Position numbers and translations under genes: made by a program. A stretch of 24,000 bases of DNA from Clostridium arbusti SL206 (GTDB lineage: Bacteria; Bacillota; Clostridia; Clostridiales; Clostridiaceae). Position 1 is the first letter of the stretch; each line of letters opens with the position of its first letter. This document shows positions 1,065-24,000 of this stretch, piece after piece. The notes under the pieces were generated by a model that was given only the letters and a program-made list of their open reading frames with translations, ran no database searches and was not told where the DNA came from. The stretch spans positions 2,849 to 26,848 of the forward strand of contig NZ_BAEV01000033.1 in NCBI RefSeq assembly GCF_000246895.1, read 5' to 3'.

Positions 1065-1412
1065 TTAATCACCCCCTTTTTGATTATTTCTATTTAAGTT
1101 ATCTAATTTTCGTATTCTTTCCGCTTCTGCTAATGCTTCTTCTTTTGTTATTTTTTTAGAACTTTTTGTATCTGTATTTGTATTTTTAAATGCTTTATTT
1201 TTATAATCTTCAAAACTCATATAATTATTTTTATCCATATAAATATGCTCTATATTCCATTGTTCAAAGAGTCTATCTTCAGCGATCTTTATATTCATCT
1301 TTTCAATTAGTTTAAATCCATCAAAAAATCTTAAATTAATTACATAATCAATATTATTGTATCTACTTAAAATTGTATCCATGCACTCATATTCATCAAA
1401 ATCTTCAGGCAC
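1065..1412 (-). CDS. tail assembly chaperone frameshift extension (gpT-like, likely made as a G-T fusion)
   Basis: This ORF is in the -1 frame relative to 1433..1777. The -1 frame is open with no stop from the slippery site at 1460-1466 through the GTG at 1412. It ends in TAA 3 nt before the TMP ATG. Confidence 0.65.
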   Translation of the reverse strand: MPEDFDEYECMDTILSRYNNIDYVINLRFFDGFKLIEKMNIKIAEDRLFEQWNIEHIYMDKNNYMSFEDYKNKAFKNTNTDTKSSKKITKEEALAEAERIRKLDNLNRNNQKGGD

Positions 1413-1432
1413 TATACTATGTGCAAATTGAA

Positions 1433-1777
1433 TTATTTTGCAGAGTTCAGTGCCTGTCCGAAAAAATCAGAAAATTGGTCATCATTAAATATTGAATTTA
1501 CTATCTCCATAACATCTTTTAATTCCATGTTTTCTACTTCACCTATAGACTGGCTACTTATATCTGCAAATAATTTATATATTTCTTGTTGTGCATCTCC
1601 TAAATGTTCTACAAATAACATTGTTAATTCTACTTGTAGATTTTGCTGTGCTTCTTCTTTTTCTTTAGGAGTTTTGTTTGATATATCTGTTATTAATCCT
1701 TTTATTTCTGCCTTTATATTCATTTTTTTAATAATTCTAGTTAATGTAAATAGATCTCCAAATTGTAATTTTCTCAT
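1433..1777 (-). CDS. tail assembly chaperone (gpG-like)
   Basis: 114-aa ORF between the major tail gene and the tape measure gene. It ends in TAA and carries a slippery heptamer near its 3' end. Confidence 0.7.
   Translation of the reverse strand: MRKLQFGDLFTLTRIIKKMNIKAEIKGLITDISNKTPKEKEEAQQNLQVELTMLFVEHLGDAQQEIYKLFADISSQSIGEVENMELKDVMEIVNSIFNDDQFSDFFGQALNSAK
1460..1466 (-). promoter_or_regulatory. -1 programmed ribosomal frameshift slippery heptamer U_UUU_UUC
   Basis: The minus strand reads GAT TTT TTC in the zero frame, giving X_XXY_YYZ = T_TTT_TTC. A -1 shift reads TTT TTT CGG ACA GGC ... ATA GTG CCT GAA, which joins ORF 1065..1412. Confidence 0.65.
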
Positions 1778-1827
1778 ATTATTATTACCTCTTTCTTATA
1801 TTTATTTTTATTTAATTTTCTAACGTA

Positions 1828-3882: not shown

Positions 3883-4578
3883 TTAAATTGCTTTTTTATA
3901 TTTCTCTAAATATTCATCATAATACATCCAAACCATTTTAGTTCTATTAGGTAATCTACCTGCTGTTTTGTATTTACCTTTACAACACTTGGATATACTA
4001 GATTGTGGTATACCATATTTTTTAACAGCTTGATTAATATAACCAAATATTTCACCTGTAGTACTACAAATTATTTTTCTTGCCTGCGGATGATTTGCAC
4101 CACTGAAATTAGCATGACTTTCTCTTAATTTTTTTCTTATCTCTTCTGAAGTATTATAATATTTTTTAGCTTCACTTATTTTTTTCTTCGCTTCCTCTGA
4201 ACAATGATGACCTTTATGTGATTCACTGATCTTATATCTAATTTCATTCATTTCTTGCTCTGTTTTACCAGCATAAGTATTTCCACCATCTCCACCATCA
4301 GCAATATTATAATAATCATCTGATTTAACTGCATTATGTAATTTAATAAATTCAATCTCTAATTTATTTGATTCTTCTCGTGAATAAGTAATTGCAACTA
4401 TATCTCTATGAAAATTTTCTTTACCATATTTTTCTATAGCATGATTTAAATAAATTCCACTACCTAAATAATTTTCTCATTTATTCCTAATGTCAAACAT
4501 CTTTTGACCTATGTATTTTTTACCATTAACCATGTTAGTTGTTATGTATATAAAACCATATGGATTTTCTATCTCCAA
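3883..4578 (-). CDS. free-standing GIY-YIG homing endonuclease (I-TevI-like, NUMOD3 repeats plus C-terminal HTH), read with TGA=Trp
   Basis: A TTG start at 4578 follows a GGGGGTG RBS. The N-terminus, absent from the track, reads LEIENPYGFIYITTNMVNGKKYIGQKMFDIRNK-W-ENYLGSG, with TGA at 4477-4479. It runs in frame into track ORF 3883..4251, which has SEEAKKKISEAKK-type NUMOD3 repeats. The total of 696 nt is 232 codons. Confidence 0.85.
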
Positions 4579-4639
4579 TCAAACACCCCCTGATTTTTTA
4601 CATTAAAAAAGAGCAAGACTACAGTTACTACTGAAAATC

Positions 4640-9053: not shown

Positions 9054-10793
9054 CTATAATCCTAGCTTTCTTCTATCTAAAATCTTTATTTTTTGTATAA
9101 CTTCAATTTCTTTAATATCAATTGTTGATTGTGCTACTGCATCTGGAGCATCATCATGTTCTGAATACTCCTGTCCACAAAAACTCATTATTTGCTCTAT
9201 AAAATCTGTATCATCTTGATTAAATATAATTCTGCCATTATTTACATCACTTATGATAGTAGATATTTTTTCATCTTTATTTTTCTTCTGCATTCTGTTT
9301 ATAAATGTGATATTTCTATATTTTAATTCATCATCTTTATTAATTAATTCTTTAATCTTTAATACATCAGCACTCATATATAGATTTTTTTCTATAGATA
9401 CATGAGTTATTTCGGGGAAATCCCTTAAAAGCTTTATAACATGATTACAAAAATCATCAAAACCTACTTTTAATAATTCACCTTTTTTAATATAAAGAAA
9501 ATCATTGTCAGCTAAACCACCAACTGCAAAAGCTGAATAATCGGCTTTATTGCTTATACTATTAGCTGGATCACAAACAAGGATATTTTTAATAAAATTA
9601 TGGCCTTGAATTTCTTCTAAAGATTGAGTTCTATTAGATATGAACCACTTTTCACCTATTTTTGATGCATCGTTCATCATTTCCTGTTTAAATGCCACTG
9701 GATTATTATAGTAATCTATAGCTAAATCTAAACAATCATATTTATCGGGCCATAAGGTTTTATATTGCATCTCTTTTTCGTGGTGATAATAAAATTCTTT
9801 GGCATCTGCAACACTATCCTTAGATTTATCATCAAAATAAAGCTGTCTGAATTTCTCTCAGATACCTTCATGGAAATATTCATCAACATTAAAGTTAACT
9901 ACTCTTTTAACTATATGTTTATAATCCTTATTCTTAAGTAATCTACTCATAAAACAATCTCTATGTAAAATAGTTCCAAGTACAATAAACTTTGTAGCCA
10001 TTTTTATCTTATGTCCATCACGGACAACTGCTTTATCTCCAGCATATTGAGAATCTTCTACCCATGTATTATACTTTTTATCTCTTGCTTCTGCTGTAAT
10101 ACAATCACTTTTTGATTGATAATCGTCTGCAATAATTACGGAAGGTCTATAACCGGAATATTTCTTACCTCTCATACTAGATGTACTAGAAATAGCTTGT
10201 ATTTTCGTTTTATTAGATAATTCCAATTCTAATTTATTTACTGTATACCTTTTTGGCTCGATAAGTTTACCAAAAGATTTTATTATGTATTTATTTTCTT
10301 CAAAGGCTTGTCTAGTTTGTGCTATAAACTCTGTAGCATCTTGCTCTGTTTTTCCTGCAACCAATGTATATATAGACTTCTTATAACAATGTAATCATAC
10401 AGATATTGCAAAATCACAGACCGTTGTCTTACTACTCCCTCTAGGCATAATTAATTCTAATTTATCTATAGTATCCTTTAAAAATGCATTTTCTAATTGT
10501 TCCCAAATCTCATAATGTACTGGTGCTAATATTCTAGCTGTATTATCTTCTTTAGGTAGAAATGTATCTTGAAGGTAATATAAACAGAAAAATTCTATAG
10601 AATATGCTCCAAGTTGTGCTGCTAAAGAATTTATTCCAAATAAGTTGTCCGCATGGGACGATACTATTTCTTCTGCTTTCATTTCTGCATCTGATTGATT
10701 AAATCCACTTGATATTAATTGCTTAGTTGTATATTTATATAGCAGATATCTGTTTTTTTCGTCTTCTGTGCTAAAATTTATATTATCTATCAA
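9054..10793 (-). CDS. terL: terminase large subunit, read with TGA=Trp
   Basis: Three track ORFs (10395..10793, 9858..10364, 9054..9770) share one frame. They are joined by TGA at 10395-10397 (..PRGSSKTTVCDFAISV-W-LHCYKKS..) and TGA at 9858-9860 (..FHEGI-W-EKFRQLYFDD..). There is a Walker A-like GSSKT motif. The total of 1740 nt is 580 codons. Confidence 0.9.
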
Positions 10794-11003
10794 TTCATAT
10801 ATTGCCTCCCTTCCATTATCCCAAGTTTAAAAAATATTATAAAAAATTGTCTGACTCTATGTGGGCATTTTGAAAATTTTACAAAATAGAAAGCCACCCC
10901 TTGACCTCTTTGTCGAACCATGTAAAATTGTTTCCATAAAAATAAGACATAGAAACTCTATATCTTATTAATAATAATTATTATTTGATTATTCATCTTA
11001 TAA

Positions 11004-11585
11004 TTATATTCTAAAACTCTTCAATGCATCTTCATATTCATCATCAACTATATGTGTATATATCATTGTAGTAGATAAATCACTATGTCCTAATGCCTTC
11101 TGTACTAATCTTATGTTCTTTGTATCTCTTAATAAATCTGTAGCAAATGAATGTCTTAACGTGTGAGGCGATATGGTCTTTGTTATACCTGCTTTACCTG
11201 CATAATTAACAACCATTTCTCTTACATCTCTATCAACTAATTGTTTGCCAGTTCTATTTGTAAATACATGGGATACTTTACCTAATTGTTCCCCCTGTCT
11301 TTGTTTCCAGTCCTGTAATAATTGTAGGGTATTTTCTCCAAGCCATAGTATTCTATCTTTAGATCCTTTACCATCTACTACTTTTAATTGTCCAGTAAGT
11401 AAATTAATATCCTGCCATTTTAAATTAATCATTTCAGATAATCTTAATCCTACTGCAAGAAATAACTGTATCATCATCTTATTTCTATGACTATTAAAAT
11501 ATCTTACATTAAATATATTTATCAATTGTTCTTGCTCTTCTTTAGTCAAGAACTCTGGTATTTTTTTATTGCTCATAACTATCAC
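11004..11585 (-). CDS. small tyrosine recombinase (XerC/D-integrase catalytic domain only, 193 aa)
   Basis: The catalytic residue pattern is present: GLRLSE (Arg), HTLRHSFAT (H-x-x-R) and LGHSDLSTTMIYTHI (His...Tyr). The ORF has no in-frame TGA. Confidence 0.8.
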   Translation of the reverse strand: MIVMSNKKIPEFLTKEEQEQLINIFNVRYFNSHRNKMMIQLFLAVGLRLSEMINLKWQDINLLTGQLKVVDGKGSKDRILWLGENTLQLLQDWKQRQGEQLGKVSHVFTNRTGKQLVDRDVREMVVNYAGKAGITKTISPHTLRHSFATDLLRDTKNIRLVQKALGHSDLSTTMIYTHIVDDEYEDALKSFRI

Positions 11586-11609
11586 CCTTTTATAATATAT
11601 TATAGCTTT

Positions 11610-11703
11610 CCACCTATTTTATGTATTATAGGTGGTTATTCACTACAATTATTAGTATATGCCTACTTGATATAAAATTCAAGTATAATCGGTGGTTATT
11701 CAC
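11610..11703. repeat. inverted repeat plus 13-bp direct repeat upstream of the recombinase gene
   Basis: An inverted repeat, CCACCTAT (11610-11617) and ATAGGTGG (11628-11635), has a 10-nt spacer. The 13-mer GGTGGTTATTCAC occurs at 11631-11643 and again at 11691-11703, exactly 60 bp apart. Confidence 0.7.
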
Positions 11704-11727: not shown

Positions 11728-12132
11728 TTACTCAACCTTCTTTAACTTATACTTTTCAAACTCATTATGAATAATTTTAGGATCTATGCTTTCATCTTTC
11801 TTATCTGATATATCCTGTGTCTTAGATGTTGGCAATCCATATATCCTATTCAATAAATAAATTAGTATATCTTTCTTTGTATTTTCTGACTTACTTGTCA
11901 ATGCTATCTTTTCTAATTCACTAATATAGATATCAACTTTCGACATTATTTTTTGTTCGCCTTGTTTTTTGAGTTGTGTCACGTACTCGTCTACTGTTGC
12001 CTTCCATTCTGGTCTTTTCATATCGTTATATATTGTCTGTCTAGCAACTCCACATAACTTAGCAATATCAGTAATTTCTGTACCTTGGGCATACAACTCT
12101 GCTTCCTTTTGTTGTCTCTCATTTAATGGCAT
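11728..12132 (-). CDS. terminase small subunit-like HTH protein (phBC6A51-type HTH)
   Basis: The N-terminus LNERQQKEAELYAQGTEITDIAKLCGVARQTIYN is an HTH. The gene is the first of the packaging block and has a GGAGGTGG RBS. Confidence 0.5.
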   Translation of the reverse strand: MPLNERQQKEAELYAQGTEITDIAKLCGVARQTIYNDMKRPEWKATVDEYVTQLKKQGEQKIMSKVDIYISELEKIALTSKSENTKKDILIYLLNRIYGLPTSKTQDISDKKDESIDPKIIHNEFEKYKLKKVE

Positions 12133-12197
12133 TTTACCACCTCCACTCTATTTACAAGTTTACATTTTTCTTGATCATTTTTATCATATTTCAGTAT

Positions 12198-13825: not shown

Positions 13826-13924
13826 AAGATAGATTACTGAGTAGGTTGGCAACCCTACATCTCTTGAAAGACCTTATTTCTAAGGCGTGGCAGCTGCCCG
13901 TTCTGCCCTTCAATAATCTATCCT
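13826..13924 (-). ncRNA. candidate structured RNA A (unclassified; stand-alone sRNA or cis-regulatory leader)
   Basis: A 15-bp closing helix (minus-strand AGGAUAGAUUAUUGA with UCAGUAAUCUAUCUU) encloses a GC-rich 69-nt core. The core holds three hairpins: GGCAG..CUGCC, GCCUUA-GAAA-UAAGGU and GUAGG..CCUAC. Two G-U pairs in the closing helix would be A-C mismatches on the plus strand. Confidence 0.5.
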
Positions 13925-13940
13925 TACTTACTATATGTTT

Positions 13941-13969
13941 ATTATATAATTATAATGCATTTTTGTCAA
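13941..13969 (-). promoter_or_regulatory. consensus sigma-70/sigma-A promoter driving RNA A
   Basis: The minus strand reads TTGACA (13969-13964), exactly 17 nt, then TATAAT (13946-13941). Confidence 0.6.
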
Positions 13970-16559: not shown

Positions 16560-17234
16560 CTAGTCTGGGAATTTTACCACCTGAATATGGTCACCTTTGA
16601 GGGGGAGCGTTATAATTTCTCTTAAAAGTTGATCTGCAAAATCTTCTTGATTATCGTCTTTAACATTACTAATATCTTTATTTATAATATAATATCCGTA
16701 TTCATCAACAAATAATTTCCTTTGAGATAGATTATATTGTAACTTCTCCAGGTCATTATACAGTTCATATGTATTCATATTATATAGGTGTACAAATACA
16801 TAATCATCATTTTTTATATGTATACCTATAGGTCAATGTAAGGCTGCCTTTTTACCTTTACATCTATCATCTATATAGTCTATCTCAAAATCAATTATGT
16901 CATCTAATTTATCCAATTTATCACATATATATCAGACTATATCATCCTTAGCGGAAGGTGTATTATATAACTTATACCCAAGCTTTCTATATTTATCTAT
17001 TTCCTGTAATTCCCTGAATTTTGATTCCTTATTACTGGAGCATTCATCAATGACCTCAAATTTAAAATTATCTGCTCCATATTCATCTCAATCTATCTGT
17101 AAATCTTTATTTATATGTTTACCATTATTTAATTCACTAATATGAGATTCTCACCGATGCTTAATATCTAAACTTCTTCCTATGTATATCTTATTTGTAT
17201 CTTGTAAATTTGTAATCTTATAAATACCTATCAT
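16560..17234 (-). CDS. second free-standing GIY-YIG endonuclease, read with TGA=Trp (4 in-frame TGA)
   Basis: ATG at 17234 follows a GGGGAGG RBS and gives MIGIYKITNLQDTNKIYIGRSLDIKHR-W-ESHISELNNGKHINKDLQID-W-DEYGADNFKFEVIDEC...YNTPSAKDDIV-W-YICDK...AALH-W-PIGIH... It runs into track ORF 16560..16778. The TGA codons are at 17151-17153, 17088-17090, 16932-16934 and 16833-16835. The total of 675 nt is 225 codons. Confidence 0.85.
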
Positions 17235-17272
17235 TATGTGTTATGCCTCCCCTTTCTGCTATACTGGTCTGT

Positions 17273-17937: not shown

Positions 17938-19437
17938 TTATTTATCTACATTATATATAATTTTACCTACTATCCAGTAAGATTTTTCCCTTTTAACTTT
18001 TCCATTTTCGTCTCTATATGTTTTTGTTTTAGGTACGTCAATAACATATGGTATACCCTGCTCTTTAAAACTAGCATTAAAACTATTAGGACTTTTAAGT
18101 TGTTTTCTATCTTGCCTTAAGTCAATAAATTCAATTAATTCCTTTTGCTTATCTTTATATAATTTTTGTCCAGTAATTTCTTTGAGTAATTCTTCTAAAC
18201 TCATGATTTCTGTAGTTGTCTCAAGTTCTAAAATAAAAGTTTTATCAACGCTTAATGCTGTTGCAATCATATTTTTATAATTAAAATTATTTTTCTTACT
18301 AAGAATTGCATTATATAAAATTAAATCTTCCTGATATTTTGTATACATACACTCATTAACAACCTTTTTTATACTATTATCAGTATTTAAAATATCATCA
18401 ATAATCCTAGTATCTGTAAATCTTTCATTTTTAAATTTATGCTTTACATATTCCTCTTGTCCATGATCTAATAAATAATCTGCTCTTTCAAGAGAATTCG
18501 TAATTTTACTTTTAAATCCATTGATTCTCCTATTATCTTTATAGTTATAGAAATATAAATTTATTGATTCACCTTCACCTATCCGTTTTCTACCCAAACA
18601 CTGAATAAATTCATCTGGATCAAATATATCTATTATAATATGCTTTACTGGAGTACCTTCTTTTACATTTACACCATTATCTAAAGCTGTAGTTATACAT
18701 AGTAAATGGTTTTTAAACTCTCCGTTTTCTATTATATTAGTTCTTTCTTCCTCATTCTCAGTATCTTTTACATATTTATCGTAATATTGATTATACTGAC
18801 TACAGATAAAAGCACCGTTATGTTTCTTACTTATTTCTAATGCTCTCTTGGCGCTGGTAAATAATAAGATCTGTTCCTCTTGGGGAATATCTTCTATAAT
18901 ACTATCTATACTTTCATATGTACTAAAGGCTGTTATATTTCTTATGTAACTATAATCTGTAGATAATTCATATTTGTAATCTATAATAATATCGTTACTT
19001 TTAAAATAATTCTCTAATATCCTTGGAGTAGCAGTTAATAGTATTTTGCATATAGTATTATCTTTTATCATTCTTTTAAAAGATAAATCTGTTTTTATAT
19101 TGAACGTTGAATCTGAAAAATAGTATTGACTCTCATCAAATATTACGTAATCATAGTTATCAAAAGATATATTATTCAATATAAACGTTTCTATCTTCTG
19201 ATAATTCATCACGGTTATATTACTAAATTCCCCTATATCTCTTTTAACTTGATCTTTTAAAGCATTTCTATTAGTTAAATAAAGAATATTACTTCCTTGT
19301 ATGCTGCAATATGTATTTAAAATGTTTTTAATAAAATAACTTTTTCCCCTGCCCGTACCTGCTTTAATTAAAATTAAATTTCCTTTGCTCCATGATTTAT
19401 ATTCTTCTTGTATAACATCTGTAATTCATTTTTTCAT
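17938..19437 (-). CDS. SF2 (DEAD/DEAH-like) helicase, read with TGA=Trp
   Basis: ATG at 19437 gives MKK-W(TGA 19426-19428)-ITDVIQEEYKSWSKGNLILIKAGTGRGKSYF (Walker A) ..., in frame with track ORF 17938..19212. That ORF has VIFDESQ (motif II) and QCLGRKRI (motif VI-like). The total of 1500 nt is 500 codons. Confidence 0.85.
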
Positions 19438-19469
19438 CAATCAAACTTCCTTTCACAAATCATTTTTTA

Positions 19470-19655
19470 TTAATTATATTTTCTACTTACCCATTGATGG
19501 AATACATTTTGTAATTCTTTAGAGTCTTTAAATTTTATATATACATCATTTTTACCACCAACACCAAATTCCACTGGTACTTGTCCATTTTCCAAATAAA
19601 AATTTGCTTGATCCATATTATAGATATATCTATAATCTTTTATTGTTTGATTCAT
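19470..19655 (-). CDS. small DUF5659-like phage protein
   Basis: 61-aa ORF. The pattern YIYNMDQANFYLENG..VYIKF......VFHQW resembles DUF5659. It is a paralog of 20541..20708. Confidence 0.45.
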   Translation of the reverse strand: MNQTIKDYRYIYNMDQANFYLENGQVPVEFGVGGKNDVYIKFKDSKELQNVFHQWVSRKYN

Positions 19656-20806: not shown

Positions 20807-21007
20807 TTACTCTAAATACTTGACATCTTGGAGTAATTTAACTACTTTTTCAAAATTCTTTGTTCTCATATCTCTATCACCTAATATAAAATGTGATATT
20901 GTACTTTTAGCTAAATCCAATTGCTTAGCTATATGTATATATTTAATGCCTTTATCTGTGCAATAATTTATAAGTTGTTTTCGTACTCCTTCCTGACCAT
21001 AATCCAT
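20807..21007 (-). CDS. XRE/Cro-like HTH transcriptional regulator
   Basis: 66-aa ORF with an HTH segment (IKYIHIAKQLDLAKSTISHFILG) and an AAAGGAGA RBS. Confidence 0.6.
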   Translation of the reverse strand: MDYGQEGVRKQLINYCTDKGIKYIHIAKQLDLAKSTISHFILGDRDMRTKNFEKVVKLLQDVKYLE

Positions 21008-21057: not shown

Positions 21058-21094
21058 TTAAAAAAAATATATAAAGGGACTAACTCTAGTCCCT
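21058..21094 (-). terminator. rho-independent terminator
   Basis: The minus strand reads AGGGACTA-GAGT-TAGTCCCT, followed by TTATATATTTTTTTT. Confidence 0.65.
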
Positions 21095-21157
21095 ATGTAC
21101 TCAAAAAAAGTTGCATGACATTAATTCCCCATGCGCAGTATATTATTTCAATTTAAA

Positions 21158-21181
21158 GGAGGCGGTGAGATTTGAACTCAC
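21158..21181 (-). other. tRNA 3'-end-like fragment (T-arm plus acceptor 3' strand); possible att core or tRNA mimic
   Basis: The minus strand reads GTGAG-TTCAAAT-CTCAC-CGCCTCC-T. This is a 5-bp T-stem with a canonical TTCAAAT loop followed by 7 nt. I found no matching 5' acceptor strand, D-arm or anticodon arm upstream. Confidence 0.4.
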
Positions 21182-21262
21182 ATAAAATATACAAAATTAC
21201 CAAATTAACACATAGTTCATTCGTGAATTTAGTTAAGTTTCATGTCTTAACTAAATAGATAA

Positions 21263-21282
21263 GGGGAGAAATAAATCTCCTC
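21263..21282. terminator. stem-loop terminator after the RNA polymerase gene (possibly bidirectional)
   Basis: GGGGAGA-AATAAA-TCTCCTC forms 7 bp including one G-U pair. It is T-rich on both sides and lies about 115 nt downstream of the TAA at 21398-21400. Confidence 0.45.
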
Positions 21283-21397
21283 TTTCCTTATACCCACCAT
21301 TTTTGAGACATTTTGACGATAACATTCTTATATTCGTTTTAGAACTATTTTTAATTTACATAATTTACAAGTCTGCACGTAAATTACAAAAACGCTC

Positions 21398-23836
21398 TTA
21401 TTTTTCAGTTTCCAATTTTTTACTATCACCTTCTTTAAATACTGATAGAAATATATCTTTATCCAATTTATACAATATATTTAATAACTCTAATTTATAC
21501 TTAAAATCAAATTTCTCTTCTAATATATCCATAATAATGCTATGTATTGTTTCTTTATTCATTATAAACTTGCTTAAATTGTCAAGATAAATAGATCGTA
21601 CTTTACTTATCTTTCTATATTTTTCCTTTTGTTCTTCTTTATCATTATTGTCTACTTTATTATTATATGTGCTCTGTATCTCCTTAAATTTATTAATCAT
21701 CTTTTTAGCAATCTCTATTATATTTTTCCTTTTTCTACTTTCAGCTTTACTGTCTATGTTATCAATGTAATTTTTAATAGGTTTAGCATGTGTAGTATCT
21801 GCTGGCTTAATTCCATTCATTATTTCTTGTAAATAATCCATTGGGCAATTGTACTTTATGAACCTAATTTTTTTATCTTTATCTTTCTTTTTACCTTTCT
21901 TTTTATTTTGACTTACATATTTAAAAAATAAAGGTTTAGATACATGTAATAGATTACTTTTGTTCAAGCTATCAATTTGCTCTTTTATATTTACATCATA
22001 CATTCTCTTAGCATTGTCTATACAAATCTCTGATAAGATGGTACATATATCAATTTTCTCTAATAACTCATTCAATCTAGTATCATTTTTATCTTTACTA
22101 TATAAATCCCAGTAAGTTGACATAAATAATTGTCCTAAATTTACTACAGTACCTATATTTTTCTGACTCTCTGCTAGTATATTATCTATTACTGCCATAT
22201 CTTTAGTACCTACAGTATAAGAATTAATGTTTTTATTTACTCCATTCTCACAAACTCTATATTGGCTCTCTGGACTTTTAATATAACATTTTCTTGCTCT
22301 AGATAATAAAGTATCATTATTTATTAATAGTAAATTATCTGAATCACAATCCTGGCCTGATAATATTCTATTTATTGGAAAATTTATAGCATTTGTGTAA
22401 ATGATGTTGTTAGTGAGATTAAAATATTTAGATATAAAATCATTATCTTTATTCTTAAGGATTAGTACGTTGCTTTGGCTTGTGTGTGGATTTCTAAATG
22501 AAACATACTCATTATTAAAAGGGTGTAGTTTTGTATAAGCTTCATTTTCCTTTAAGATCATTCTATCTTGCCATTTATCATAATCAAGGATTAACTCACC
22601 TTTTTTATTTCTATTTGTTGGTAATTGCTTCACGACATGATATAATAATTCCTTGCCATTTTGAACAATTGTTGTATAGTCCCCGGGTAATCTTATTTTC
22701 CCATGTTTTATATATTTAACATAATTATGGATATCTGATTTTCTTTTCTTTTTAAATAAGTCTGTATATATAAGTTGGTTATTATGTTTATATAGATCTA
22801 CTATCATCTCATTAGTATTGTTATCATTTACGTTTTTAAATAAATAATCTATGTACACATCATTATTATTTTTTAACTTTTGTATGTAATTTACTTCAAA
22901 TTCACTTAATTTCTTCATATCTTCTTGATCTAAAGGAATACTATTTAATTGCTGATATGACATTTGGTTTATTATATTTCCTTCTACATCATACCCTCTT
23001 TGGCTCTCATGTTCTACCTTCACGATACCGAAAATATGATCTTCATCTTCAATTTTTCTTTTCCAGTGATCCCACATCTTGGGTTTACTACCTTTTACCT
23101 TATTAAATTTTAAGGCCTTAAGGGAATTTGGTGTGGTTATCATAAGTATATCTTTAGCTAAAATTGTATCTCCAAACATATTAGTTAATTCCCATGTATC
23201 ATAATCTATATGATGTTCTGTTGCATAATCCTTTAAAAATTGCTGTATATTAGTATTAAAAACTGCACATTTAAACATATGCTGCCTTAATAGTAAGAAT
23301 CCAGTATTTTCATATTTTCCTACAAATTGACTCGAATCTAAAAGACCTTCGCCATCGAAAATATCATTTGTCATCGTATAATCATTTTGTTGCTTACTTA
23401 CTAATAATACTGGTTTCTTATCTTTTCCCTCTGTATCTAAATTTTCTTGTGTGTTTTCAGCTTCGGCAGAAATCTGCACAACCTGAGGATTATCATTCTT
23501 TTCTTTTTCCTTTTCCACTATATTACAATTAATTTTAAATACAGATTGTACATCGTCTACAAGCAAAATATTTTTAGGATCTATTTTAATAGTGCCCTCG
23601 ATACTACTGCTTACCAAGCTTTCGTAGGTCAGAAGACCTGGATAATCTATATCATTTTTACCTTCTAAAGTCATTCCTAATCTTTGCCATTTTATCATCT
23701 TATCTCTAAGTTGCTTCCTTATAAATAACACCTGGCCTGTCCGGCTCTTACTCGAGGTTCGACTATAGACTACATAATCAATTGTTTTTTTACCTATAAT
23801 AAGAGAAAAGCCTTCTGTGTACAACTTTTTTCTCAA
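21398..23836 (-). CDS. YonO / cellular-RdRP-like single-subunit (double-psi beta-barrel) RNA polymerase, putative
   Basis: 812-aa ORF. It contains VSFRNPHTSQSNVLILKN...NIIYTNAINFPINRILSGQDCDSDNLLLINND. This parallels the RdRP/QDE-1 catalytic region (..RxPxxxxxD(I/V)....(I/V)xF....LSGGDxDGDxxxVxWD). The N-terminal YSRTSSKSRTGQVLF resembles the RdRP S-S-x-x-R-x-x-x-x-F element. The frame stays open upstream to a TAA at 23981-23983 with no canonical start, so the N-terminus is uncertain. There is no in-frame TGA. Confidence 0.6.
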   Translation of the reverse strand: MRKKLYTEGFSLIIGKKTIDYVVYSRTSSKSRTGQVLFIRKQLRDKMIKWQRLGMTLEGKNDIDYPGLLTYESLVSSSIEGTIKIDPKNILLVDDVQSVFKINCNIVEKEKEKNDNPQVVQISAEAENTQENLDTEGKDKKPVLLVSKQQNDYTMTNDIFDGEGLLDSSQFVGKYENTGFLLLRQHMFKCAVFNTNIQQFLKDYATEHHIDYDTWELTNMFGDTILAKDILMITTPNSLKALKFNKVKGSKPKMWDHWKRKIEDEDHIFGIVKVEHESQRGYDVEGNIINQMSYQQLNSIPLDQEDMKKLSEFEVNYIQKLKNNNDVYIDYLFKNVNDNNTNEMIVDLYKHNNQLIYTDLFKKKRKSDIHNYVKYIKHGKIRLPGDYTTIVQNGKELLYHVVKQLPTNRNKKGELILDYDKWQDRMILKENEAYTKLHPFNNEYVSFRNPHTSQSNVLILKNKDNDFISKYFNLTNNIIYTNAINFPINRILSGQDCDSDNLLLINNDTLLSRARKCYIKSPESQYRVCENGVNKNINSYTVGTKDMAVIDNILAESQKNIGTVVNLGQLFMSTYWDLYSKDKNDTRLNELLEKIDICTILSEICIDNAKRMYDVNIKEQIDSLNKSNLLHVSKPLFFKYVSQNKKKGKKKDKDKKIRFIKYNCPMDYLQEIMNGIKPADTTHAKPIKNYIDNIDSKAESRKRKNIIEIAKKMINKFKEIQSTYNNKVDNNDKEEQKEKYRKISKVRSIYLDNLSKFIMNKETIHSIIMDILEEKFDFKYKLELLNILYKLDKDIFLSVFKEGDSKKLETEK

Positions 23837-24000
23837 ATCTTCTTGATTAATCTCTTGATAACTTGGATCTTGCGTTTTGCCAACGAGAAAATCTGTATAT
23901 TCTTTTAATTTTTTATCATAATCTTGATCTTTCTCTAGCAGTTGACCGTCAACCTTTTGTTTTTCTAATTCTAATCTTTTTTATTTGTATATTCAATTAT

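What the first reader, a model, noticed from the sequence alone, without database searches (positions are those of the whole stretch)
21398..23983. Phage-encoded YonO/RdRP-like single-subunit RNA polymerase with a DCDSD catalytic loop
The mid-protein segment FRNPHTSQSNVLILKN-(about 30 aa)-ILSGQDCDSDNLLLINND matches the double-psi beta-barrel catalytic region shared by eukaryotic-type RdRPs (QDE-1 LSGGDYDGD) and by the SPbeta YonO family of phage DNA-dependent RNA polymerases.

Here the usual DxDGD motif is DxDSD. Such polymerases are rare and poorly characterised. Their promoters and terminators are essentially unknown.

Finding one in a TGA-recoded phage suggests the phage controls both transcription and decoding. 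The gene itself is TGA-free (6 TGG). However, at about 25% TGA usage this outcome has roughly an 18% chance probability, so it is only suggestive.
Basis: partly seen in the sequence, partly recalled or inferred. Interest (0 to 1): 0.75.

Follow-up and report, generated by a model that had tools for sequence, protein, structure and literature searches.

The report
YonO-like phage RNA polymerase gene
The finding is real: a phage found in a Clostridium genome assembly encodes a single-chain "two-barrel" RNA polymerase, a distant cousin of Bacillus phage SPbeta's YonO and of eukaryotic RNAi polymerases, that most likely transcribes the phage's late genes, which read TGA as tryptophan; the enzyme family is common rather than rare.

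Summary

**The gene**
- It lies on the minus strand, open from 23980 to the stop at 21398-21400 (860 codons, 0 TGA, 6 TGG).
- Both quoted motifs are present, 28 residues apart.

**Homology**
- Profile-profile comparison with the YonO family gives 98.9% probability (E 1e-17).
- A high-confidence AlphaFold model (pLDDT 85) hits only cellular RdRPs (RDR2, QDE-1) in the PDB.
- All eight residues invariant in two-barrel polymerases are conserved.
- DCDSD aligns residue-for-residue with QDE-1's catalytic DYDGD.
- D-x-D-S-D is the hallmark of this clade (PHROG 8308, "unknown function"). YonO proper has D-x-D-G-D.
- The clade is not rare: about 1,700 clusters at 50% identity.

- 23983 is not the gene start. 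An A6 run (A7 in an 87%-identical relative) shifts the frame, and about 105 N-terminal codons lie beyond the window.

**Context**
- TGA=Trp recoding of the late genes is confirmed.
- The contig comes from a Clostridium arbusti assembly.

**New lead**
- A conserved 20-nt motif sits about 100 nt after the polymerase stop. It is single-copy and is the top hit in 35 of 81 loci.
- In many relatives a covarying three-way-junction RNA that is absent from Rfam follows it.
- The motif is a candidate late promoter and leader.

**Novelty:** new member of a known kind.

The parts
21398..23980 (-). Open frame of the two-barrel (YonO/RdRP-like) RNA polymerase: 860 codons plus a TAA stop. This is the C-terminal roughly 90% of the gene. 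It has 0 TGA and 6 TGG.
   Evidence: PHROG 8308, E 8e-217. hhalign to the YonO family, 98.9% probability. AlphaFold pLDDT 85.2. Foldseek hits to RDR2/QDE-1.
23977..23982 (-). A6 homopolymer where an 87%-identical relative has A7. This is an apparent 1-nt deletion that breaks the reading frame.
23971..24000 (-). Tail of the N-terminal part of the gene in the other frame (IIEYTNKKD*). The remaining roughly 100 codons lie beyond the window edge.
   Evidence: versus P0002. The PHROG profile match starts at position 114 of 847.
23270..23359 (-). First-barrel catalytic residues: FDGEG (D209) and LLRQHMFK (R232-x4-K237). These match the D709/R738/K743 pattern of QDE-1.
   Evidence: Invariant in 45 sequences of both families. 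Definition of the invariants from PMC2919709. Coordinates.
22451..22498 (-). FRNPHTSQSNVLILKN. R496-x-P498 is the R-x-P of the second barrel.
   Evidence: Aligned to QDE-1 RSPAHFPSDI and to YonO LRSPHLFREH.
22337..22351 (-). DCDSD, the metal-binding aspartate triad (D544, D546, D548).
   Evidence: Invariant. Aligned to QDE-1 DYDGD and to YonO DNDGD. YonO's triad was shown to be catalytic in PMC5467207.
21280..21299 (-). TGGTGGGTATAAGGAAAGAG, the window's copy of a conserved roughly 20-nt motif (consensus about rGTTyCyTAwATGGAAGrGrG) found just downstream of this family's polymerase genes. It is a candidate cognate (late) promoter or leader start. This role is inferred.
   Evidence: Best PWM hit in the whole window with a PWM built without the window (16.8 bits). 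The top same-strand hit falls within 250 nt after the RNAP stop in 35 of 81 loci. Alignment.
21261..21287 (-). Hairpin GGAAAGAGGAGA-TTTATT-TCTCCCCTT. It occupies the place where relatives carry the outer stem of a three-way-junction RNA.
   Evidence: The covariance model finds only a stem-like match here.
21060..21134 (-). Two terminator-like hairpins with T-runs (21134-21103 and 21094-21060), lying between the polymerase gene and the next gene.
   Evidence: The whole intergenic region folds with z = -2.87.
20807..21007 (-). First downstream gene, a 66-aa helix-turn-helix-like protein. It is 100% conserved in relative L081.
9054..10826 (-). Large terminase with two in-frame TGA codons that align to Trp in standard-code homologues. 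It is the representative proof of TGA=Trp recoding of the late genes downstream of the polymerase.
   Evidence: phrog_38 matches as one stretch, residues 33-573, across both TGA codons. Trp at the aligned positions.

Best explanation
The gene encodes a single-chain polymerase of the two-barrel (double-psi beta-barrel) superfamily. It belongs to a large Firmicutes-phage clade (PHROG 8308) that is a distant sister of SPbeta YonO. The clade is marked by D-x-D-S-D in place of D-x-D-G-D.

**Shown**
- Homology, fold and conservation of the whole active-site residue set.

**Inferred, by analogy with YonO and from gene order**
- It is made early from a standard-code-compatible (TGA-free) gene by the host machinery.
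- It then transcribes the roughly 21 kb of co-oriented genes downstream of it: helicase, methylase, packaging, head and tail genes. Many of these need TGA read as Trp.

**Inferred more weakly**
- Its start site is the single conserved 20-nt motif about 100 nt after its own stop codon (21299-21280). That motif is followed by a 5' hairpin, or by a three-way-junction RNA in relatives.

**Caveat for this assembly**
- The gene carries a 1-nt homopolymer frameshift in a poorly conserved linker near the 5' end.
- This may be a sequencing or assembly error, a recent mutation, or a tolerated split.
For: **Homology and fold**
- PHROG 8308, E 8e-217.
- 273 homologues, mostly from Clostridium, Paenibacillus and Bacillus prophages; several are tagged PF05183. 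11 of 37 pass PF05183.
- hhalign to the YonO family: 98.9% probability, E 1.2e-17, 546 columns.
- The eight two-barrel invariants (D209, R232, K237, R496, P498, D544, D546, D548) are invariant in 45 sequences.
- A joint profile aligns RNPH and DxDSD onto QDE-1's RSPAH and DYDGD.
- AlphaFold pLDDT 85.2, pTM 0.80.
- In the PDB search the top 21 hits are all RDR2 or QDE-1. In BFVD the top hit is a phage 'RNA dependent RNA polymerase', E 1e-51, TM 0.74.

**Function by analogy**
- YonO is a processive DNA-dependent RNAP that transcribes SPbeta late genes as one operon. Its Asp triad is essential (PMC5467207).
- SPbeta has the same layout: yonO lies upstream of, and co-oriented with, the terminase, portal and structural genes.
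- Every ORF of at least 100 aa downstream in the window is on the same strand, running up to the tape measure gene.
- In relative L081 the polymerase lies about 2.5 kb downstream of a divergent cI-like HTH gene, which is an early position.

**Recoding**
- TGA=Trp in the late genes.
- The RNAP has 0 TGA and 6 TGG. The early block of L081 has 0 TGA and 18 TGG.

**Motif**
-.
- RNA element covariation: 18 of 19 pairs show compensatory change; 91% of cells are paired versus about 52% in the slid controls.
- The element always lies 20-190 nt after the RNAP gene.
Against: **Activity and homology limits**
- No activity, template preference or transcript data exist for this clade.
- Identity to YonO is only about 17-20%.
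- The window protein has no Pfam, NCBIfam or PADLOC hit.
- Its closest solved structures are RNA-dependent enzymes.

**Integrity of the gene**
- The gene is frameshifted at 23977-23982 and lacks a conserved N-terminal segment in frame.

**Weaknesses of the promoter reading**
- The motif score (16.8 bits) is within the range of the best hits in shuffled windows (mean 13.8, max 19.8). Its significance rests on position.
- Only 7 of 38 loci show a canonical terminator between the RNAP stop and the motif.
- In the window the motif is followed by two terminator-like hairpins.
- The three-way-junction RNA itself is absent from the window.

**Recoding**
- No suppressor tRNA is present in the window.
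Confidence: 0.72

Rival explanations
1. The enzyme is not a transcriptase for late mRNAs. Instead it acts on RNA or single-stranded DNA, like QDE-1 and the RDRs. It might make primers for replication, double-stranded RNA, or a specific small RNA such as the structured RNA encoded next to it in relatives.
For: - The best structural matches are RNA-dependent polymerases, and QDE-1 has dual DNA/RNA-dependent activity (PMC9508822, title and abstract).
- Clade members hit PF05183, whereas YonO itself does not.
- No primase or DNA polymerase is recognisable in the 24 kb.
- A conserved structured RNA is tightly linked to the gene in relatives.
Against: - The only characterised bacterial or phage member, YonO, is DNA-dependent and transcribes late genes.
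- The gene sits at the head of a long co-oriented late array, as in SPbeta.
- No second activity is needed to explain the layout.
Confidence: 0.12
2. In this genome the gene is dead or crippled. The A6 frameshift is real, only a truncated product is made (812 aa from TTG 23836, or 766 aa from ATG 23698), and the element is a decaying prophage.
For: - The window has A6 where the relative has A7.
- N-terminal residues lost from the frame are at least 90% conserved in the family.
- Public annotations start at internal codons (766 and 812 aa).
- The other large genes in the window show no frameshifts, so the assembly is not generally indel-prone.
Against: - 860 codons remain open downstream in 26% GC DNA (P about 1e-38). 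Any inactivation is therefore very recent.
- All catalytic invariants lie downstream of TTG 23836.
- The break falls in a poorly conserved linker, so a two-piece enzyme or low-level -1 slippage on AAA-AAA-G could still yield activity.
- A single homopolymer miscall cannot be excluded.
Confidence: 0.15
3. The conserved motif and RNA after the polymerase gene are not a promoter and leader. They would instead be a terminator or attenuator at the early-late boundary, or an independent small RNA gene. The polymerase's true promoters would lie elsewhere.
For: - The outer stem is followed by a T-run in several relatives and in the window.
- In L010 and L035 a terminator and a sigma-70-like promoter follow the element before the next gene.
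- Only 7 of 38 loci have a separate terminator upstream of the motif.
Against: - The unpaired 5' half of the motif (GTTyCyTAwAT) is conserved in sequence without covariation and lies outside the stem.
- It is retained in the window even though the three-way junction is lost.
- In SPbeta the YonO start site likewise precedes a non-coding RNA ahead of the late genes.
Confidence: 0.3

Closest known systems
YonO of Bacillus phage SPbeta (single-chain two-barrel DNA-dependent RNAP; Forrest et al. 2017, PMC5467207)
   Same: - Size is similar (about 840-950 aa) and both are phage or prophage encoded in Firmicutes.
- The catalytic core is collinear (hhalign 98.9%, 546 columns).
- The active-site invariants are the same.
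- An N-terminal 'VYI-S' segment is shared.
- The genome position is the same: upstream of, and co-oriented with, the packaging and structural genes.
   Different: - Identity is only about 17-20%.
- tblastn of the window protein or of P0114 does not find SPbeta.
- The loop is D-x-D-S-D versus DNDGD.
- The C-terminal Cys cluster of the YonO clade (C799, C802, C816, C819) has no counterpart among the invariants of this clade.
- The window phage is small (36-kb contig, versus 134 kb for SPbeta) and TGA-recoded.
- The motif found here is not present in the yonO-yonK region.
Eukaryotic cellular RdRPs (QDE-1, RDR2; Pfam PF05183)
   Same: - The predicted fold matches over about 870-940 aligned columns (E down to 1.5e-12).
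- The R-x-P and LSG-D-x-D-x-D motifs align residue by residue.
- The R-x4-K spacing in the first barrel is shared.
   Different: - Identity is about 10% and TM-score only 0.42-0.47.
- The window protein is below every Pfam threshold.
- It is encoded by a dsDNA tailed phage with no RNAi context.
- The fourth loop residue is Ser rather than Gly.
Stop-codon-recoded phages of standard-code hosts (Borges et al., bioRxiv 10.1101/2021.08.26.457843)
   Same: - TGA is read as Trp (code 4) in structural and packaging genes, while early genes stay compatible with the standard code.
- The host is a presumed standard-code Firmicute, Clostridium arbusti.
   Different: - That survey covers gut metagenomes; its main text contains no occurrence of the term 'RNA polymerase'.
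- No suppressor tRNA or release-factor gene is visible in this window.
T7-like single-subunit phage RNAPs (functional analogue only; from general knowledge)
   Same: One polypeptide, made early, proposed to transcribe later genes from a short specific promoter that starts in a purine run.
   Different: The fold is unrelated (right-hand Pol I-like versus two-barrel). No sequence or structure match was seen in any search here.

Membership tests
Two-barrel (DPBB) RNA polymerase superfamily | Eight invariant active-site residues: the D-x-D-x-D triad, R-x-P, a first-barrel Asp, and two basic residues spaced R-x4-K as in QDE-1 (Ruprich-Robert & Thuriaux 2010) | tested here: met
   D544/D546/D548, R496/P498, D209 and R232/K237 are all invariant in 45 sequences spanning this clade and the YonO clade.
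Two-barrel (DPBB) RNA polymerase superfamily | Overall fold with two double-psi beta-barrels and the Asp loop at their interface | tested here: inconclusive
   - The model is confident (pLDDT 85.2) and full-length Foldseek hits go only to RDR2 and QDE-1.
- The strand pattern around 491-553 fits a barrel.
YonO family (SPbeta YonO and close relatives) | Detectable sequence-family membership (HMM or BLAST level) | tested here: not met
   - BLASTP gives only E 0.003 and 0.068 fragments.
- tblastn against phage genomes misses SPbeta.
- Homology appears only at the profile-profile level.
- This is a sister clade, not a YonO orthologue.
YonO family (SPbeta YonO and close relatives) | D-N/x-D-G-D catalytic loop | tested here: not met
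   The YonO clade has DxDGD in 115 of 115 sequences. This clade has DxDSD in 99 of 102. The window has DCDSD.
YonO family (SPbeta YonO and close relatives) | DNA-dependent, processive RNA synthesis and dependence of late-gene transcription on the enzyme | not testable with these tools
   Shown only for YonO. Here it is inferred from gene order.
Pfam PF05183 (RdRP) | Score at or above the gathering threshold (23.8 bits) | tested here: not met
   The window protein has no PF05183 hit even at E<=10. 11 of 37 clade members do pass, with a best E of 8e-12.
PHROG 8308 (phage protein family, function unknown) | Profile match | tested here: met
   E 7.9e-217. Protein residues 38-859 match profile positions 114-819 of 847.
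Code-4 (TGA=Trp) recoded phage | In-frame TGA inside conserved genes, aligned to Trp in standard-code homologues | tested here: met
   - Single HMM stretches span the TGA codons in the terminase, portal, capsid and tail genes.
- Trp is found at TerL 144 and 323, GIY 30, 51 and 42, and portal 94.
Code-4 (TGA=Trp) recoded phage | Phage-encoded suppressor tRNA(UCA) | tested here: not met
   ARAGORN finds no tRNA in the 24 kb. About 12 kb of the 36,288-bp contig lies outside the window and could not be retrieved.

The most novel reading that the evidence does not exclude
The conserved, single-copy 20-nt motif just after the polymerase gene (window 21299-21280) would be the cognate promoter of the D-x-D-S-D clade of YonO-like polymerases. 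In relatives it is followed by a covarying three-way-junction RNA that Rfam does not hold. That would make it the first sequence-defined promoter and leader for any bacterial or phage single-chain two-barrel RNAP.

In this Clostridium-associated phage the motif heads an operon that also needs TGA=Trp decoding. Late expression would then be gated twice, by an orthogonal polymerase and by an orthogonal genetic code, while the polymerase gene itself stays readable in the host's standard code.
Probability: 0.3. Interest if true: 0.7.

Novelty: new member of a known kind. Interest (0 to 1): 0.48.

Why it matters
Single-chain two-barrel polymerases are the minimal relatives of all cellular RNA polymerases, yet only YonO has been characterised and its promoter is still unknown.

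This work adds three things:
- **A second clade.** It shows a large clade with its own catalytic-loop signature.
- **A testable start site.** It gives a concrete, position-conserved sequence motif and an associated structured RNA that can be tested directly as promoter and leader.
- **A tractable system.** The window places such a polymerase in a TGA-recoded phage found in the genome assembly of a culturable, standard-code Clostridium. That is a possible system for asking how phage transcription and code switching are coordinated.

As a gene identification alone it is ordinary. Related proteins are already auto-annotated as 'RNA dependent RNA polymerase'.

Tried and rejected
**Searches that found nothing**
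- Single-sequence searches of the window protein against Pfam, NCBIfam, PADLOC and PDB sequences.
- The clade profile alone against PDB sequences. Only the joint YonO-plus-clade profile reached QDE-1.
- Megablast of the gene region against GenBank phages.
- Retrieving the rest of the source contig, to see the N-terminus, a suppressor tRNA and the lysogeny module. Exact look-ups of the 766-aa, 812-aa and 66-aa products, and the genome-contig scan, did not return the Clostridium arbusti contig.

**Ideas rejected**
- A tRNA or tmRNA-like T-arm at 21181-21165. I rejected it as a tRNA or att remnant. ARAGORN and Rfam give nothing. L081 keeps only the stem, through a compensatory change, with a different loop.
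- High conservation of the intergenic region versus L081 as evidence of constraint. I rejected this because the block of near-identity also covers the 3' end of the gene and the next gene, so it looks like a recombination mosaic.
- The three-way-junction RNA in the window. It is absent even with filters off.
- The same motif in SPbeta. It is absent from the yonO-yonK region.
- A repeat search for multiple promoter copies in the window. There was nothing above noise.

**Test that was uninformative**
- A crude coding-density test for recoding in related loci. Whether other phages with this polymerase are recoded therefore remains untested.
Full report
**1. The observation**

The plus strand of 21398-23983 is littered with stops. 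The gene is on the minus strand. Reading 23980->21398 gives 860 sense codons followed by TAA.
- FRNPHTSQSNVLILKN is residues 495-510 (nt 22498-22451).
- ILSGQDCDSDNLLLINND is residues 539-556 (nt 22366-22313).
- The two motifs are 28 residues apart.
- The frame has 6 TGG and no TGA.
- In DNA of this composition an 860-codon open frame has a probability of about 1e-38.

**2. The 5' boundary is not a gene start**

- 23983-23981 is an in-frame TAA. The first canonical start is the TTG at 23836 (812 aa).
- That 812-aa product is identical to WP_138990631.1, 'hypothetical protein [Clostridium arbusti]', on a 36,288-bp contig.
- The PHROG profile match begins only at profile position 114.
- The 87%-identical homologue P0002 (948 aa) reads ...IIEYTNKKRLKLEKQK... 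through this point. Its DNA has AAT-A7-GAT (L081).
- The window has A6 (23982-23977). IIEYTNKK is therefore in another frame (24000-23971) and RLELEKQK opens the main frame.
- The gene thus carries a 1-nt homopolymer frameshift, and its first roughly 105 codons lie beyond the window.
- The break is in a poorly conserved linker. The lost N-terminal segment contains positions that are at least 90% conserved.
- All catalytic residues lie downstream of TTG 23836.
- I cannot tell whether this is a miscall, a recent mutation or a tolerated split.
- The other large genes in the window show no frameshifts.

**3. What the protein is**

Single-sequence searches are silent in Pfam, NCBIfam, PADLOC and PDB. 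The protein does match PHROG 8308 ('unknown function') at E 8e-217.

*Sequence homology*
- A search of 5.8 billion proteins returns 273 homologues. Apart from two near-identical entries, they are 38-54% identical. The named ones come from Clostridium, Alkaliphilus, Paenibacillus and Bacillus genomes.
- Several carry a precomputed PF05183 tag or the name 'RNA dependent RNA polymerase'.
- In a 37-sequence alignment, 11 members pass PF05183 (best E 8e-12).
- SPbeta YonO (NC_001884, 61356-63875) gives only weak but collinear BLASTP matches (E 0.003 and 0.068). These pair FRNPH with LRSPH and ILSGQDCDSD with LLQF-DNDGD.
- A profile-profile comparison of this clade with a 20-member YonO alignment gives 98.9% probability, E 1.2e-17, over 546 columns.

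*Active-site residues*
- In the joint 45-sequence alignment these residues are invariant: D209, R232, K237, R496, P498, D544, D546 and D548.
- They form the set of eight, with the R-x4-K, R-x-P and D-x-D-x-D spacings, that Ruprich-Robert & Thuriaux defined for all two-barrel polymerases (PMC2919709).
- The joint profile reaches QDE-1 in the PDB (E 0.024). It aligns RnPhtspsnv with RSPAHFPSDI and LsGsDvDsD with LSGGDYDGD.

*Predicted structure*
- An AlphaFold model built on the alignment is confident (pLDDT 85.2, pTM 0.80).
- Its 21 significant Foldseek hits in the PDB are all RDR2 or QDE-1 (E 1.5e-12 to 7e-7, about 740-970 aligned columns, most 870-950). The largest subunits of multisubunit RNAPs follow at E>0.2.
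- In BFVD the top hit is a phage 'RNA dependent RNA polymerase' (E 1e-51, TM 0.74).
- I could not inspect coordinates, so the geometry of the Asp loop is inferred from alignment and not measured.

**4. The D-x-D-S-D loop and how common the family is**

- Ser at the fourth position is the clade norm. 99 of 102 homologues with a recognisable loop have D-x-D-S-D. 115 of 115 YonO-clade proteins have D-x-D-G-D.
- Only the Cys at position 2 is peculiar to this gene. The 87% relative has DVDSD.
- The clade is not rare. An exhaustive HMM search of 1.84 billion cluster representatives finds 1,691 at E<=1e-3 and 739 at E<=1e-30.
- IMG/VR holds 218 relatives. 40 species-representative genomes carry one.
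- The YonO clade gave more than 4,600 hits.

**5. Context and recoding**

*Gene order on the minus strand, running from the window's high coordinates down to position 1*
- All ORFs of at least 100 aa from the polymerase down to position 1 are on the minus strand.
- In that order they are: polymerase; a 390-nt non-coding region; a 66-aa HTH-like gene and small ORFs; an SF2 helicase; a GIY-YIG endonuclease; a DNA methyltransferase; a skipping-rope RNA; a small-terminase-like gene; a short tyrosine recombinase; the large terminase; portal; minor head; scaffold; major head; a second GIY-YIG; the major tail protein; chaperones; and the tape measure.
- This mirrors SPbeta, where yonO precedes the co-oriented late operon.

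*TGA recoding*
- Under the standard code the terminase, portal, capsid and tail genes are broken by TGA. Yet single HMM stretches span those codons.
- The TGA positions align with Trp in standard-code homologues: TerL 144 and 323, GIY 30, 51 and 42, and portal 94. TGA=Trp is therefore confirmed.
- TGA supplies 34-40% of Trp-type codons outside the polymerase. That gives P(0 of 6) of about 0.05-0.08.
- In relative L081, the six ORFs upstream of the polymerase plus the polymerase itself have 0 TGA and 18 TGG. The polymerase there lies about 2.5 kb downstream of a divergent cI-like HTH gene.
- This fits the published model that early genes of recoded phages remain readable in the host's standard code (bioRxiv 10.1101/2021.08.26.457843).
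- No tRNA is present in the window. The rest of the contig could not be retrieved.

**6. How it most likely works**

*Shown*
- The protein has the fold and the full active-site set of a two-barrel polymerase.

*Inferred from YonO*
- YonO is DNA-dependent and processive. It transcribes SPbeta late genes as one operon from a single start site, and its Asp triad is essential.
- From this and from gene order I infer the following. The enzyme is made early by host machinery from a TGA-free gene. It then transcribes the long co-oriented array downstream, whose translation additionally needs TGA=Trp decoding.

*A lead on where it starts*
- In 11 relatives with 48-54% identical polymerases, the sequence just after the stop codon contains a conserved element of about 85 nt.
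- RNAalifold folds it as a three-way junction.
- A covariance model finds it in about 30 IMG/VR loci and in 9 independent bacterial genomes. It is always on the gene strand, 20-190 nt after the polymerase gene.
- 18 of 19 pairs show compensatory changes. 91% of cells are paired, versus about 52% when partners are slid. The caveat is that this alignment was fitted to the model.
- Rfam has no such family.
- The window and L081 lack the junction. They keep the unpaired, sequence-conserved block just 5' of it (consensus about rGTTyCyTAwATGGAAGrGrG).
- TGGTGGGTATAAGGAAAGAG at 21299-21280 is the best hit in the whole window for a matrix built without the window.
- With leave-one-out matrices, the best same-strand hit of a roughly 20-kb locus falls within 250 nt after the polymerase stop in 35 of 81 loci. 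About 1% would be expected by chance. Second-best hits are several bits lower in most of these loci.
- In the window the motif runs into a hairpin (21287-21261). Further hairpins and two terminator-like structures follow.

*Reading of the motif*
- I read the motif as a candidate single late promoter whose transcript begins with a structured 5' leader. This parallels the YonO start site, which lies upstream of a non-coding RNA and yonK.
- This is an inference (about 0.3-0.4).
- The alternatives are a terminator or attenuator at the early-late boundary, or an independent small RNA.
- The evidence on these is mixed. T-runs follow the outer stem in some loci. A terminator plus a sigma-70-like promoter follow the element in L010 and L035. 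Only 7 of 38 loci have a canonical terminator between the stop codon and the motif.

**7. Comparison with what is known, and verdict**

- The protein works like YonO and belongs to the same superfamily.
- It fails two tests for membership of the YonO family proper. There is no BLAST- or HMM-level relationship, and it has D-x-D-S-D rather than D-x-D-G-D. It is a sister clade.
- The existence of YonO-like proteins in Firmicutes phages has been known since Iyer et al. 2003 and Ruprich-Robert & Thuriaux 2010. Relatives are already auto-annotated as RdRP.
- The gene is therefore a new member of a known kind.
- The added value lies in four points: the clade signature; the frameshift caveat; the confirmed pairing with a TGA=Trp late region in a phage from a Clostridium assembly; and a concrete, testable candidate for the still-unknown promoter and leader of these polymerases.

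Noticed in passing
L002:6118-6201, L005:5264-5346, L010:3689-3772, L042:9432-9535, L083:12562-12644 and about 30 further loci: A conserved three-way-junction RNA of about 85 nt lies immediately downstream of the polymerase gene in relatives. 18 of 19 base pairs show compensatory changes. Unpaired GAACAAAAG and UAGUAG stretches are conserved. No Rfam family matches it. It is absent from the window, from L081 and from SPbeta.
   Followed up: yes
window 13833-13917 (-), with 13941-13969 (-): A skipping-rope RNA (Rfam RF02924, 64.6 bits versus a gathering score of 36.7) sits in a 306-nt gap between late-region genes. A perfect sigma-70 consensus (TTGACA-17-TATAAT, 12 of 12) lies about 24 nt upstream of it.
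   Followed up: partly
window 11004-11618 (-): A short (about 190 aa) tyrosine recombinase (PF00589, E 3e-43) is wedged between the small-terminase-like gene (11728-12147) and the large terminase. Its homologues sit at the left end of many related IMG/VR prophage loci, so here it is in an unusual place.
   Followed up: partly
window 16560-17240 (-) and 3883-4602 (-): Two GIY-YIG homing-endonuclease genes are inserted in the late region. The first uses TGA for all four of its Trp codons (4 TGA, 0 TGG), the strongest recoding bias in the window.
   Followed up: partly
window 19426-19473 (-): The SF2 helicase gene (DEAD/ResIII) needs a start upstream of its Walker A motif. That stretch holds three TGA codons within 16 codons, with TGA as codon 4 if the ATG is used. 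At least two of them are conserved in L081. This is the first TGA-dependent gene downstream of the polymerase.
   Followed up: partly
window 21371-21397 (-): A second conserved non-coding block lies directly after the polymerase stop codon (GAGCGTTTTTGTAATTTACGTGCAGAC). Similar sequences occur in L003, L010 and L042, and many relatives show TTGGTGGACA here. Its function is unknown.
   Followed up: no
window 21165-21181 (-): A hairpin resembles a tRNA or tmRNA T-arm (GTGAG-TTCAAAT-CTCAC followed by CGCCTCC). L081 keeps the stem through a G-C to A-T compensatory change but has a different loop. It is not a tRNA by ARAGORN or Rfam.
   Followed up: partly
window 9054-10826 (-): Three PHROG families of 'unknown function' (phrog_14112, 13328, 11978) match consecutive pieces of this terminase, with breaks near its TGA codons. 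They look like fragments created when recoded phages were gene-called with the standard code.
   Followed up: no
window 1065-1795 (-): Two overlapping ORFs in different frames lie just upstream of the tape measure gene. This is the usual position of the tail-assembly chaperone pair made by programmed frameshifting. The downstream ORF contains three in-frame TGA codons.
   Followed up: no
L001:19409-19474 (-) (SPbeta record 59409-59474): A DUF3800-VIII RNA (RF03075, 47.5 bits) lies in the yonK-yonN gap of SPbeta. [quoted passage not shown]
   Followed up: no
whole window: The window belongs to a 36,288-bp contig of a Clostridium arbusti assembly; the 812-aa ORF equals WP_138990631.1. It is thus a TGA=Trp phage associated with a cultured bacterium presumed to use the standard code. 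The contig was not present in the species-representative genome collection.
   Followed up: partly
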